From NCBI RefSeq assembly GCF_003334815.1, contig NZ_QOWO01000005.1: 64,000 bases of DNA. One strand, 5' to 3'. Position numbers and translations under genes: made by a program. Shown in pieces: positions 48,957 through 51,370 of the stretch (position 1 is the first letter of the stretch; each line of letters starts with the position of its first letter). The stretch comes from Escherichia coli. Its GTDB lineage: Bacteria; Pseudomonadota; Gammaproteobacteria; Enterobacterales; Enterobacteriaceae. Below the pieces are notes generated by a model. It saw only the letters and a list, made by a program, of their open reading frames with translations. It made no database searches and had not been told where the DNA came from.

Positions 48957-49160
48957 CACGACTGCCGGATGCGGCGTGAACGCCTTATCCGGCCTACACT
49001 TCGCCCGTAAGCCGTAGGCCTGATAAGACGCGCAAAGCGTCGCATCAGGCATGGCGCACGACTGCCGGATGCGGCGTGAACGCCTTATCCGGTCTACACT
49101 TCGCCCATAAACCGTAGGCCTGATAAGACGCGCATAGCGTCGCATCAGGCATCTGCGCAC
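48957..49160. repeat. BIME/REP cluster (two tandem ~100-bp units)
   Basis: acgactgccggatgcggcgtgaacgccttatccgg[c/t]ctacacttcgccc[g/a]taa[g/a]ccgtaggcctgataagacgcgca[a/t]agcgtcgcatcaggcat, twice. Confidence 0.85.
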
Positions 49161-49173
49161 GACTTATCTATGT

Positions 49174-49713
49174 TTACCACATCAAATCATCAGGCACTTT
49201 GAAGTCGGCATACGGGTCGTCTTCATCCTGCTCTTCGGCGCTGAGCGCGCTGTGCAACACTATACTGCTGGCATCGCGCTGAGCAATTTTATCGGCAACG
49301 CTGGCGGGAATAATGGCGTATTCACCTTCGCTATTGTTATCGACCAACAAGCGGGCAATCGCCAGACGACCATTAATCAACTGCGCCTGTGTGAGCTTAT
49401 CGACAAAAATCTTCTTAATCAGATTGCCGTCAGTGAAGTTAAAACCAATATCGCCATTGGCAATGGTGATTCGGTTCATTTCAATAAGCTGCTTCACCTG
49501 AGCTTTATATTCTTTCGCCAACGCCGCTTGTTTTTGCTGTTCGCTAAGCTGTTTATCACGCTCAAGCTGTGCCTTTTTATTTTCTTCTACCGCCGCCCGA
49601 GCTTCACGCGCCTGAACGCGCGATTTTTTCGCCGTTCTCTCCACCTTCGCCGCTTTTTTGCTGGTGACTAATCCTGCTTTGAGCAACTGCTCTTGTAAGG
49701 TAAGTTTTGCCAT
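49174..49713 (-). CDS. yaiL: DUF2058 family protein YaiL
   Basis: ORF 49174..49725; Lys/Ala/Gln/Glu-rich N-terminal half; start may be the second Met (MAKLTLQEQ). Confidence 0.75.
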   Translation of the reverse strand: MAKLTLQEQLLKAGLVTSKKAAKVERTAKKSRVQAREARAAVEENKKAQLERDKQLSEQQKQAALAKEYKAQVKQLIEMNRITIANGDIGFNFTDGNLIKKIFVDKLTQAQLINGRLAIARLLVDNNSEGEYAIIPASVADKIAQRDASSIVLHSALSAEEQDEDDPYADFKVPDDLMW

Positions 49714-49815
49714 CTTTGTTTCCAAACCCGCTGAATAATTTTTTTGCGAGTATACCTGTAAACGCCGTAGGTGTATTGGGGTGAAGTCCCTTTCGCCCCT
49801 GCCTAATAAGGCACG

Positions 49816-51027
49816 TCAGGCATCGGCGCACGGCTGTATTCGTGATCTCCGGCTCATCAAAATAAACACCGCCAACCCAGCAACAAGAATACCCGGTGCA
49901 GAAGCGGCCATTACGCCGACCGTGCCAGTGCCTAATGCCAGCATTTTCCCGGCCAGTAACGGACCGCTCATAGCCCCCAGACGCCCTACCGCCACGGCTG
50001 TTCCCACACCTGTTGCGCGGATCTGCGAACTGTAAAACAACGGTGCCAGGGCATACAAAACGCTTTGCCCACCTGTCGCAAACAACCCCGCGACAAATCC
50101 CGCCAGCAACATACCGTTAAATGACGACACCGTTCCAAGCGCCAGCAGCGAAGCTAACATGCCGCTATAAATCAGTAGCGACATGGTTACTGGACGCAGC
50201 TTATCCATCAATGCGCCCAACATTAACGTCCCGCTTGCCGCCCCCATTTGCAGGGCAAACATCACCCCTGCCGCCTGCGATGGCTGGAATCCTTGCTCCA
50301 CCAAAAGTAGCGGTAGCCAGTTGATCAACATGTAGACCACCAGCAGAGTGAAGAAATAACACAACCACAGCAGCAGCGTCGCGGTTGCCGTTTCTGGCGC
50401 AAATAAGGCACGCAGTGGTGGCGCAGACTGTTTTTCGCCAGCGAAAACCGCCGACTCCGGCAGCCAGCGCATTAATAGCGGCACCAGAATCAACGGCACC
50501 ACACCACCTACCCAAAACACCGTTTGCCATGCTAAGTTTGCCCCCGCGAAACCCAGTGTCGCCGCCAGCGCCGCGCCAATGGGAACACCGCAATACATCA
50601 GGCTCACTGCCGTCCCACGAAAACGTGGACCCGCGGCTTCAGACGTCAGGGCGATAAGATTCGGCAACGCCGCCCCCAGCCCGACACCGGTCATCAGCCG
50701 CGCAAAGACCAGTGAGGGGAAATCCCAGGCAATCGCCGTTGCCAGTGAGAACAAACCAAACAGCGCAACTGAGCCAATCAAAATGCGCTTGCGACCATAA
50801 CGGTCCGCCAGCATTCCGCCAACCAACGCGCCGGGTAGCAAACCGAGTATTCCGGCGCTAAATATCCAGCCCATTTGCATTTTATCGAGTGCGAAAGCCT
50901 GGGCGATGCCACCCGCCGCAATGCCAGCCGCCTGAAGATCCAGCCCTTCCATCAGAGCGACCAAAAAACAAAGCCCGATGGTCAGCATCAGGCGGGATGA
51001 AGATGATGAAGGGGTACGAGTCGACAT
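49816..51027 (-). CDS. mhpT: 3-(3-hydroxyphenyl)propionate MFS transporter
   Basis: Recognised start MSTRTPSSSSSRLMLTIGLCFLVALMEGLD within ORF 49816..51072; 12 TM. Confidence 0.85.
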   Translation of the reverse strand: MSTRTPSSSSSRLMLTIGLCFLVALMEGLDLQAAGIAAGGIAQAFALDKMQMGWIFSAGILGLLPGALVGGMLADRYGRKRILIGSVALFGLFSLATAIAWDFPSLVFARLMTGVGLGAALPNLIALTSEAAGPRFRGTAVSLMYCGVPIGAALAATLGFAGANLAWQTVFWVGGVVPLILVPLLMRWLPESAVFAGEKQSAPPLRALFAPETATATLLLWLCYFFTLLVVYMLINWLPLLLVEQGFQPSQAAGVMFALQMGAASGTLMLGALMDKLRPVTMSLLIYSGMLASLLALGTVSSFNGMLLAGFVAGLFATGGQSVLYALAPLFYSSQIRATGVGTAVAVGRLGAMSGPLLAGKMLALGTGTVGVMAASAPGILVAGLAVFILMSRRSRIQPCADA

Positions 51028-51099
51028 AAGATGAACCTCGTTGCGAGTGCAGGTGAATCGCGACTGATACATTGCCAGCCGCGTAATCAGAACTATTTA

Positions 51100-51370
51100 A
51101 TGACTGCCTACGGGCGAAATGTAGGCCGGACAAGACGTTTATCGCATCCGGCAGTCGTGTGCAGATGCCTGATGCGACGCTAACGCGTCTTATCAGGCCT
51201 ACAAATTCCCGCGCCATCCGTAGGCCGGATAAGGCGTTCACGCCGCATCCGGCAGTCGTGCGCAGATGCCTGATGCGACGCTAACGCGTCTTATCAGACC
51301 TACAAATTCTCACGCCATCCGTAGGCCGGATAAGGCGTTCACGCCGCATCCGGCAGTCGTGCTGGGATGG
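51100..51370. repeat. BIME/REP cluster (two to three tandem units)
   Basis: Repeated gcatccggcagtcgtg..gcagatgcctgatgcgacgctaacgcgtcttatcag[g/a]cctacaaatt...ccatccgtaggccggataaggcgttcacgccg units. Confidence 0.85.

What the first reader, a model, noticed from the sequence alone, without database searches (positions are those of the whole stretch)
48957..51370. Two large BIME/REP clusters bracket the yaiL-mhpT pair
Nearly identical ~100-bp REP-containing units occur in tandem at 48957-49160 (after frmB) and again at 51100-51370 (between mhpT and mhpE). The two clusters are in inverse orientation relative to each other and flank exactly two genes. BIMEs bind IHF and gyrase and stabilise upstream mRNA, and such clusters are hotspots for rearrangement and IS insertion. 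The spurious ORFs the track calls inside them (48849-49160, 51266-51514) are repeat artefacts.
Basis: partly seen in the sequence, partly recalled or inferred. Interest (0 to 1): 0.3.

Follow-up and report, generated by a model that had tools for sequence, protein, structure and literature searches.

The report
Two ordinary E. coli BIME-2 repeat arrays
The two repeat clusters are real but ordinary: they are standard E. coli BIME-2 arrays (alternating Y and Z2 REP hairpins) in the spacers after frmB/yaiL and mhpE, which gain and lose 100-bp units and attract IS621 but do not act as a pair around yaiL-mhpT.

Summary
Both clusters exist as described. Array 1 (48956-49164) is Y>-<Z2-Y>-<Z2, two 100-nt units. 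Array 2 (51121-51362) is <Y*-Z2>-<Y-Z2>-<Y, 2.4 units of 101 nt. All nine palindromic units match published Y or Z2 consensus sequences, so both are textbook BIME-2 arrays. The window holds a third one, between mak and araJ.

Units are 93-97% identical within an array. They are only 84-86% identical between the two arrays, no closer than either is to the third array. Only the Y unit plus its head flank (43-44 nt) is identical in inverted orientation.

Across 5,426 complete E. coli genomes:
- The mhpE-mhpT spacer varies in 101-bp steps (175 to 680 bp; the window has 375, MG1655 has 577).
- The frmB-yaiL spacer holds one or two units.
- IS621 sits in array 1 in 98 genomes and in array 2 in 59.
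- No genome shows an inversion or deletion of yaiL-mhpT.

Neither array contains an IHF consensus site; published work places that site in BIME-1. The mhpE-mhpT array is already a published hotspot for lac-amplification junctions. The ORFs called inside the arrays are repeat artefacts. Verdict: already known, low interest.

The parts
48117..48950 (+). frmB (fghA), S-formylglutathione hydrolase. Stop TGA at 48948-48950, followed in frame by TAA TAG.
   Evidence: ORF list; RefSeq annotation of strain C9 and MG1655.
48956..49164 (+). BIME-2 array 1: two 100-nt units, Y> S <Z2 s Y> S <Z2, plus a partial copy of the head flank GCACGAC. It lies in the convergent frmB/yaiL spacer (223 bp).
   Evidence: period 100, 2.1 copies, 94%; unit parsing.
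48963..48997 (+). Array 1 PU1, Y type (1 difference from the published Y consensus). The stem starts 13 nt after the frmB stop codon.
   Evidence: consensus sequences quoted in PMC11208160.
48998..49013 (+). Tail-to-tail short linker, 16 nt, ACTTCGCCCGTAAGCC.
49014..49051 (-). Array 1 PU2, Z2 type (2 differences from consensus). Carries the IS621 target ATCAGGCCTAC on the - strand, starting at 49014.
49052..49062 (+). Head-to-head linker, 11 nt, TGGCGCACGAC.
49063..49097 (+). Array 1 PU3, Y type (2 differences from consensus).
49114..49151 (-). Array 1 PU4, Z2 type (2 differences from consensus). Second IS621 target, at 49114. Its head lies 22 nt past the yaiL stop codon.
49174..49713 (-). yaiL (DUF2058 protein), convergent with frmB.
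49816..51027 (-). mhpT, 3-hydroxyphenylpropionate transporter.
51103..51120 (+). Left edge of array 2: GCCTAC tail remnant plus linker GGGCGAAAT, resembling the array-1 linker in reverse complement.
   Evidence: Inverted repeat I5.
51121..51362 (+). BIME-2 array 2: 2.4 units of 101 nt, <Y* s Z2> S <Y s Z2> S <Y. It lies in the mhpE-mhpT spacer (375 bp here, 577 bp in MG1655).
   Evidence: period 101, 2.4 copies, 93%.
51121..51153 (-). Array 2 PU1, degenerate Y type.
51166..51202 (+). Array 2 PU2, Z2 type (2 differences from consensus). IS621 target ATCAGGCCTAC at 51192; IS621 is inserted at this position in strain EC9.
51220..51254 (-). Array 2 PU3, Y type, identical to array 1 PU1.
   Evidence: (I3).
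51267..51303 (+). Array 2 PU4, Z2 type (3 differences from consensus). Its tail reads ATCAGACCTAC, one mismatch from the IS621 target.
51321..51355 (-). Array 2 PU5, Y type, identical to array 1 PU1. It is the unit nearest mhpE, about 48 nt past the mhpE stop codon. In roughly half of sampled strains a single Y unit at this position is the only REP in the spacer.
   Evidence: (I1).
51403..52416 (-). mhpE, 4-hydroxy-2-oxovalerate aldolase, last gene of mhpABCDFE.
48849..49160 (-). Spurious ORF (103 aa, GTG start) that reads through array 1 and runs antisense into the frmB 3' end.
   Evidence: no CDS annotated here in MG1655 or C9.
51266..51514 (+). Spurious ORF (82 aa). Its ATG is the ATGCCTGATG head of a Z2 unit, and it runs antisense into the mhpE 3' end.
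   Evidence: this Z2 unit is absent in the 175-bp alleles.

Best explanation
These are two independent, ordinary members of the E. coli BIME-2 family: tandem arrays of alternating Y and Z2 REP hairpins joined by short linkers.

Shown here:
- Both arrays have the sequence anatomy of BIME-2.
- Both sit only in 3' or intercistronic spacers. Array 1 lies between convergent frmB and yaiL. Array 2 lies between mhpE and mhpT on the same strand.
- Neither spacer has a hairpin-plus-T-run terminator, and both strands fold far better than shuffled sequence.
- Arrays gain and lose whole 100/101-bp units between strains.
- IS621 uses their Z2 tails as its target.

Inferred from published work on other REP arrays:
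- Once transcribed, the stacked GC-rich hairpins block 3'-to-5' exonucleases and partly terminate transcription.
- Array 1 would then act as a two-way transcript end for frmRAB and yaiL.
- Array 2 would protect the mhpABCDFE transcript end and reduce read-through into mhpT.
- On DNA, the Y units are preferred gyrase cleavage sites.
- The first Y stem starts 13 nt after the frmB stop codon. That is inside the published window (fewer than 16 nt) in which a REP can lower translation of the upstream gene.

The fact that the two arrays bracket yaiL-mhpT is a coincidence of REP density, not a functional pairing.
For: Anatomy:
- The nine units lie 1-3 edits from published Y or Z2 consensus, except one degenerate Y (consensus sequences in PMC11208160).
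- Units alternate in orientation, with 16-17-nt tail-to-tail and 10-12-nt head-to-head linkers. This matches the BIME-2 definition in PMC3333891.
- Rfam naRNA4 hits exceed the gathering score at both arrays and at the third array.

Placement and folding:
- All REPs in the window sit in 3' spacers.
- Neither spacer has a canonical intrinsic terminator.
- RNA folds have z-scores of -6.4, -4.4 and -7.4.

Population:
- Spacer lengths are 175/274/375/476/577/680 bp for mhpE-mhpT and 124 or 223-227 bp for frmB-yaiL.
- IS621 lies at ATCAGGCCT^AC, in 98 and 59 genomes.
- No genome of 5,426 carries the inversion or deletion junction.
- Between-array unit identity of 84-86% is no higher than identity to an unrelated array, 78-86%.

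Literature:
- A REP array acting as partial Rho-dependent terminator plus stabiliser of the upstream mRNA, and two-way effects between convergent genes (bioRxiv 10.64898/2026.03.23.713779).
- Gyrase cleavage enriched in BIME-2, mostly in y units (PMC6379681).
- Locus copy number varies between strains (PMC3333891).
- The mhpE-mhpT array is an amplification-junction hotspot (PMC3161906).
- The under-16-nt rule for translation (Liang et al. 2015, as quoted in PMC12306157).
Against: - No transcript, protein or gyrase data for these two arrays were available here. The gyrase paper's supplements do not name these genes.
- The 2026 preprint finds REP effects to be context-dependent and sees no genome-wide half-life effect.
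- About half of sampled strains have only a single Y unit after mhpE, and more than half have one unit after frmB. The extra units are therefore dispensable and may be neutral.
Confidence: 0.85

Rival explanations
1. The two arrays work as a pair. As inverted repeats they would mediate inversion of the yaiL-mhpT segment, or they would mark the ends of a mobile or topologically insulated two-gene cassette.
For: The arrays share 43-44-nt perfect or near-perfect inverted arms and enclose exactly two genes. BIME-2 elements have been proposed as topological barriers (PMC10592627).
Against: - No genome of 5,426 has frmB joined to an inverted mhpT, and none has frmB joined to mhpE. The normal junctions are found in 5,293 and 4,828 genomes.
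- The arrays are no more similar to each other than to a third BIME-2.
- The commonest allele of array 2 is a single Y unit.
- Where the mhp cluster is missing (502 genomes), the break lies at about 49780, between yaiL and mhpT, not in either array.
- MG1655 is reported to hold 208 BIME-2 sites (PMC10592627), roughly one per 22 kb. A second site within about 2.5 kb therefore has a chance of roughly 0.2 (my estimate).
Confidence: 0.03
2. The arrays are genes for naRNA4-like nucleoid-associated small RNAs that act with HU to condense the chromosome.
For: Rfam RF02564 hits of 79.6, 79.3 and 62.8 bits against a gathering score of 59.5.
Against: - The model matches any head-to-head Z2-Y pair. The unrelated mak/araJ array scores 79.8 bits, and opposite-strand matches at the same positions score 49-59 bits, at or below the 59.5-bit gathering score.
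- The 2026 preprint reports that REP325/naRNA4 does not measurably compact the nucleoid and acts locally instead.
Confidence: 0.05
3. The arrays are selfish or neutral repeats (REPIN-like elements amplified by the REP-associated transposase or by replication slippage) with no selected role at these two sites.
For: Copy number ranges from 0 to 5 extra units with no constraint visible in these data. IS621 insertions are tolerated in about 1-2% of genomes. TnpA-REP cleaves and recombines BIMEs in vitro (PMC3333891).
Against: At least one Y unit is kept at both sites in every allele inspected. REPs are strictly confined to 3' spacers. Published experiments show local effects for other arrays. This view is compatible with the best explanation rather than opposed to it.
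Confidence: 0.3
4. The ORFs called inside the arrays (48849-49160 on the - strand, 51266-51514 on the + strand) encode real small proteins.
For: Open frames of 103 and 82 codons exist. One RefSeq genome lists a 'hypothetical protein' under the mhpT-mhpE match (H47).
Against: - Neither ORF is annotated in MG1655 or C9.
- Both read REP sequence and share the same REP-derived peptide, RPDKAFTPHPAVVL.
- Both run antisense into the ends of real genes.
- The unit lengths, 100 and 101 nt, are not multiples of 3, so copy-number alleles break the frame.
- The start of the second ORF lies in a Z2 unit that the 175-bp alleles lack.
Confidence: 0.01

Closest known systems
BIME-2 (bacterial interspersed mosaic element type 2; Gilson, Bachellier, Hofnung; as summarised in PMC3333891)
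   Same: Y and Z2 palindromic units alternate in orientation, with short tail-to-tail and head-to-head linkers. The arrays form tandem multi-copy units in extragenic 3' positions, and copy number differs between strains.
   Different: Nothing of substance. The only locus-specific features are the linker sequences and the Z2 loops.
REP325 / naRNA4 array in yjdM-yjdN (Rfam RF02564; PMC4550694; bioRxiv 10.64898/2026.03.23.713779)
   Same: It is the same kind of Z2-Y unit, and Rfam scores here exceed the gathering threshold. Array 2 has the same layout as REP325, between two genes on one strand.
   Different: REP325 has 12 hairpins; these arrays have 4 and 5. No expression or processing data exist for these loci. 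Array 1 lies between convergent genes.
BIME-1 / RIB-RIP elements (Y - L - Z1 with an IHF site; Boccard and Prentki 1993, cited in PMC3333891)
   Same: They contain a Y unit, are extragenic, and lie at 3' ends.
   Different: The arrays here have no Z1 unit, no long L linker and no IHF consensus, and they are multi-copy.
IS621 bridge-RNA target sites in REPs (Choi 2003; Durrant 2024, PMC11208160)
   Same: The Z2 tails carry the exact natural target ATCAGGCCTAC. Natural insertions at ATCAGGCCT^AC occur in both arrays.
   Different: None. The arrays are passive targets.
REPIN / RAYT (TnpA-REP) system
   Same: An inverted REP doublet is the repeating unit, and there is evidence of amplification in whole units.
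   Different: The transposase gene is not in this window. No transposition event was observed, only local changes in copy number.

Membership tests
BIME-2 | Contains Y-type palindromic units | tested here: met
   Four units are 1-2 edits from TGCCGGATGCGGCGTAAACGCCTTATCCGGCCTAC, and there is one degenerate copy.
BIME-2 | Contains Z2-type units (not Z1) | tested here: met
   Four units are 2-3 edits from the Z2 consensus and 7-9 edits from Z1.
BIME-2 | Units alternate in orientation, with a short tail-to-tail linker and short head-to-head linkers | tested here: met
   Tail-to-tail linkers are 16-17 nt and head-to-head linkers 10-12 nt. I did not assign the named s/l/r motif types.
BIME-2 | Occurs as tandem multiple copies | tested here: met
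   2.1 and 2.4 copies by Tandem Repeats Finder; up to 5 extra units in other strains.
BIME-2 | Extragenic, at the 3' ends of transcription units | tested here: met
   Array 1 lies between convergent frmB and yaiL. Array 2 lies after mhpE.
BIME-2 | Copy number at a locus varies between strains | tested here: met
   Spacer lengths step by 100-101 bp across genomes.
BIME-2 | Bound and cleaved by DNA gyrase in vivo | not testable with these tools
   Published for the family (PMC6379681). These loci are not named in the supplements that were held.
BIME-1 / RIB | Z1 unit and a long L linker carrying an IHF site | tested here: not met
   No Z1 unit is present. No WATCAANNNNTTR match lies in either array; the nearest is at 48839-48851, inside frmB.
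Rfam RF02564 naRNA4 | Covariance-model score at or above the gathering threshold (59.5 bits) | tested here: met
   79.6 bits (49017-49094, -), 79.3 bits (51223-51300, +) and 62.8 bits (51124-51199, +).
Rfam RF02564 naRNA4 | Expressed and processed as a discrete RNA of about 77 nt that binds HU | not testable with these tools
   No expression data were available. The proposed function is disputed in bioRxiv 10.64898/2026.03.23.713779.
IS621 natural target | Exact 11-nt target ATCAGGCCTAC, with insertion after the CT core | tested here: met
   Target sites at 49014 (-), 49114 (-) and 51192 (+). Insertion junctions were read in L006, L007 and L008.
Invertible segment bounded by inverted repeats | Both orientations of the enclosed segment occur in the population | tested here: not met
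   No genome of 5,426 carries the inverted junction.

The most novel reading that the evidence does not exclude
The number of Y-Z2 units in the mhpE-mhpT spacer (0 to 5 extra units across strains) may work as a heritable, stepwise dial on read-through from the mhp catabolic operon into the transporter gene mhpT. No promoter-like site was found in the 93 nt between the array and the mhpT start codon. Separately, the Y hairpin 13-15 nt after the frmB stop codon may lower FrmB output by stalling ribosomes. Neither idea has been tested at these loci.
Probability: 0.15. Interest if true: 0.3.

Novelty: already known. Interest (0 to 1): 0.08.

Why it matters
It matters little beyond annotation. The result confirms that ORF calls inside REP arrays should be masked. 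It corrects the IHF attribution, since these are BIME-2 rather than BIME-1. It also shows that two nearby REP arrays should not be read as a functional bracket. The population figures are a small, concrete illustration of how these elements behave: a 101-bp copy-number ladder, IS621 occupancy of 1-2%, and no inversions. The mhpE-mhpT array was already documented as a rearrangement hotspot in the lac-amplification literature.

Tried and rejected
1. Inversion of yaiL-mhpT. A chimeric query joined the frmB 3' end to the reverse complement of the mhpT 5' end. No genome of 5,426 joined the two halves. Rejected.
2. Deletion of yaiL-mhpT between the arrays. A query joining the frmB 3' end to the mhpE 3' end found no joined match in 5,426 genomes. 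Rejected.
3. Apparent partial matches in the first search (H24, H34, H36) looked like breakpoints at the array edges. Opening them showed normal gene order with different unit numbers, so they were BLAST joining artefacts.
4. IHF site: no consensus match in either array.
5. Canonical intrinsic terminators: none in either spacer.
6. A special relationship between the two arrays, such as duplication of one from the other. Unit identity between them equals identity to a third array. Rejected.
7. The mhp-cluster presence/absence boundary does not use either array.
8. Locus-specific gyrase cleavage data: the held supplements of PMC6379681 do not mention these genes.
9. Liang, Rudd and Deutscher 2015 could not be read. 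The under-16-nt rule is cited second-hand from PMC12306157, and I do not know whether frmB is on their list.
10. A search for papers on mhpT transcription found nothing useful.
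Full report
**What is there**

The window is E. coli, about 99.8% identical to K-12 MG1655 but not the same strain. The gene order is frmR-frmA-frmB (+), yaiL (-), mhpT (-), mhpE (-).
- Array 1 spans 48956-49164: period 100, 2.1 copies, 94% matches.
- Array 2 spans 51121-51362: period 101, 2.4 copies, 93% matches.

These two and a third array at 17807-18006 are the only long-period tandem repeats in the 64 kb.

**Anatomy**

I compared each palindromic unit with the three published E. coli REP consensus sequences (quoted in PMC11208160).
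- Array 1 reads Y>, <Z2, Y>, <Z2.
- Array 2 reads <Y (degenerate), Z2>, <Y, Z2>, <Y.
- The Y and Z2 units lie 1-3 edits from their own consensus and 7-9 edits from the others.
- Tail-to-tail linkers are 16-17 nt and head-to-head linkers 10-12 nt.

This is the definition of BIME-2 given in PMC3333891: y plus z2 units, short linkers, tandem copies. Rfam's naRNA4 model, which describes one Z2-Y pair, scores 79.6, 79.3 and 62.8 bits against a gathering score of 59.5. It scores 79.8 bits at the unrelated third array, so the hit marks the repeat family rather than a specific gene.

**How alike are the two arrays?**

Units are 93-97% identical within an array and 84-86% identical between arrays 1 and 2. 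They are 78-86% identical to the third array, 31 kb away. The two arrays are therefore ordinary family members and not copies of one another. What they share exactly, in inverted orientation, is the Y unit with its head flank: 43 nt at 100% and 44 nt at 98%.

**Position relative to genes**
- Array 1 fills the 223-bp spacer between convergent frmB and yaiL. The first Y stem begins 13 nt after the frmB stop codon (TGA, followed by TAA TAG). The last Z2 head lies 22 nt past the yaiL stop codon.
- Array 2 lies in the 375-bp spacer after mhpE, about 48 nt past its stop codon and 93 nt upstream of the mhpT start codon.
- Neither spacer contains a hairpin-plus-T-run terminator, and no promoter-like site lies between array 2 and mhpT.
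- The transcribed strands fold much better than shuffled sequence, with z-scores of -6.4, -4.4 and -7.4.

**Population test**

The collection holds 5,426 complete E. coli genomes. I used queries made only of the unique flanks, which avoids noise from REP matches elsewhere in the genome.

The mhpT-mhpE flanks are joined in 4,828 genomes. In a 58-genome sample spread down the ranking, spacer lengths were distributed as follows:

| mhpE-mhpT spacer (bp) | genomes |
|---|---|
| 175-179 | 29 |
| 274-276 | 7 |
| 375-377 | 3 |
| 476-478 | 3 |
| 577 | 15 |
| 680 | 1 |

The frmB-yaiL flanks are joined in 5,293 genomes. Spacer lengths in the sample were 123-126 bp in 33 genomes and 223-227 bp in 25.

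Parsing fetched alleles shows that the steps are whole Z2-Y units. The shortest mhpE-mhpT allele carries a single Y unit. MG1655 has two more units than the window. This variability is a known property of BIME-2 (PMC3333891).

**Inversion and deletion**

A query joining the frmB 3' end to the reverse complement of the mhpT 5' end found no joined match in any genome. A query joining frmB to mhpE also found none. Partial matches in the first broad search that looked like breakpoints at the array edges (H24, H34, H36) turned out to be copy-number alleles with normal gene order. In the 502 genomes without mhpT or mhpE, the whole mhp cluster is missing. The break lies near 49780, between yaiL and mhpT, and yaiL then sits next to lacI. 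Neither array is involved.

**IS insertion**

IS621 is inserted in array 2 in strain EC9 and in array 1 in strains LAM_HS/HS and E32. The junctions read ...ATCAGGCCT | IS621 | AC... in the Z2 tail. This is the natural bridge-RNA target ATCAGGCCTAC (PMC11208160). The window carries three exact targets in the two arrays, at 49014, 49114 and 51192. Junction-specific queries find IS621 next to frmB in 98 genomes and next to mhpT in 59. Some of these probably share ancestry, so they are not all independent events.

**Literature on this very locus**

Lin et al. 2011 (PMC3161906) identified the REP array between mhpE and mhpT as the site of about 20% of their sequenced lac-amplification junctions and drew its secondary structure as their Figure S1. 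The hotspot claim is therefore correct, and it is already published.

**Function**

Nothing could be measured here, so the mechanism is inferred from other REP arrays.
- REP325 acts as a partly Rho-dependent terminator and as a stabiliser of the upstream transcript. REPs between convergent genes are associated with higher expression of both genes. The earlier nucleoid-compaction role of naRNA4 was not reproduced (bioRxiv 10.64898/2026.03.23.713779).
- Gyrase cleavage is enriched in BIME-2, mainly in y units (PMC6379681).
- REPs fewer than 16 nt from a stop codon can lower translation (Liang et al. 2015, as quoted in PMC12306157). The frmB stop codon meets that distance.
- IHF does not apply. 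Its site is in the L linker of BIME-1, and no consensus match lies in either array.

**The ORFs inside the arrays are artefacts**
- They are not annotated in MG1655 or C9.
- They translate REP sequence and share a REP-derived peptide.
- They run antisense into frmB and mhpE.
- The 100/101-nt unit length is not a multiple of three.
- The start of one ORF lies in a unit that the commonest allele lacks.

**Verdict**

It is wrong about IHF and about the two arrays acting as a bracket. Everything fits a well-described family and a locus already in the literature, so the finding is already known and of low interest.

Noticed in passing
window 17807-18006: A third BIME-2 array (Y> <Z2 Y> <Z2, period 102, 1.9 copies) lies in the convergent mak / araJ spacer. 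It also matches Rfam naRNA4, at 79.8 bits, and carries one exact IS621 target at 17968.
   Followed up: partly
window 19992-20030 and 30068-30103: Two single, degenerate REP-like palindromes. By mapping to MG1655 they fall in the convergent ykiD/rdgC and yaiW/yaiY spacers.
   Followed up: partly
window 49796-49836: The last six codons and the stop codon of mhpT (…QPCADA*) lie in a 21-nt stretch that is 90% identical to the head-to-head junction of the BIME units (TCAGGCATCGGCGCACGGCT against TCAGGCATCTGCGCACGACT). A short imperfect palindrome follows (GCCTGACGTGCCTTATTAGGC). It looks like a decayed REP that now supplies the end of the gene. The fold z-score is only -1.8.
   Followed up: partly
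window about 49780 (yaiL-mhpT spacer): In 502 of 5,426 genomes the whole mhp cluster, including array 2, is absent. yaiL then sits next to a regulator remnant and lacI, and homology with the window ends near 49780.
   Followed up: partly
window 51121-51362 against MG1655 374882-375458: The window's mhpE-mhpT spacer is exactly 202 bp (two units) shorter than in MG1655, although the flanks are about 99.8% identical. The 375-bp allele was rare in the sample (3 of 58).
   Followed up: yes
window 48948-48956: frmB ends with three in-frame stop codons in a row (TGA TAA TAG), immediately before the first REP hairpin.
   Followed up: no
L007 (strain LAM_HS / E. coli HS), L008, L006: The commensal reference strain HS carries IS621 inside the frmB-yaiL array. 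Strain E32 has the same insertion with one more unit beside it, so unit number changed in an array that also carries the IS.
   Followed up: partly
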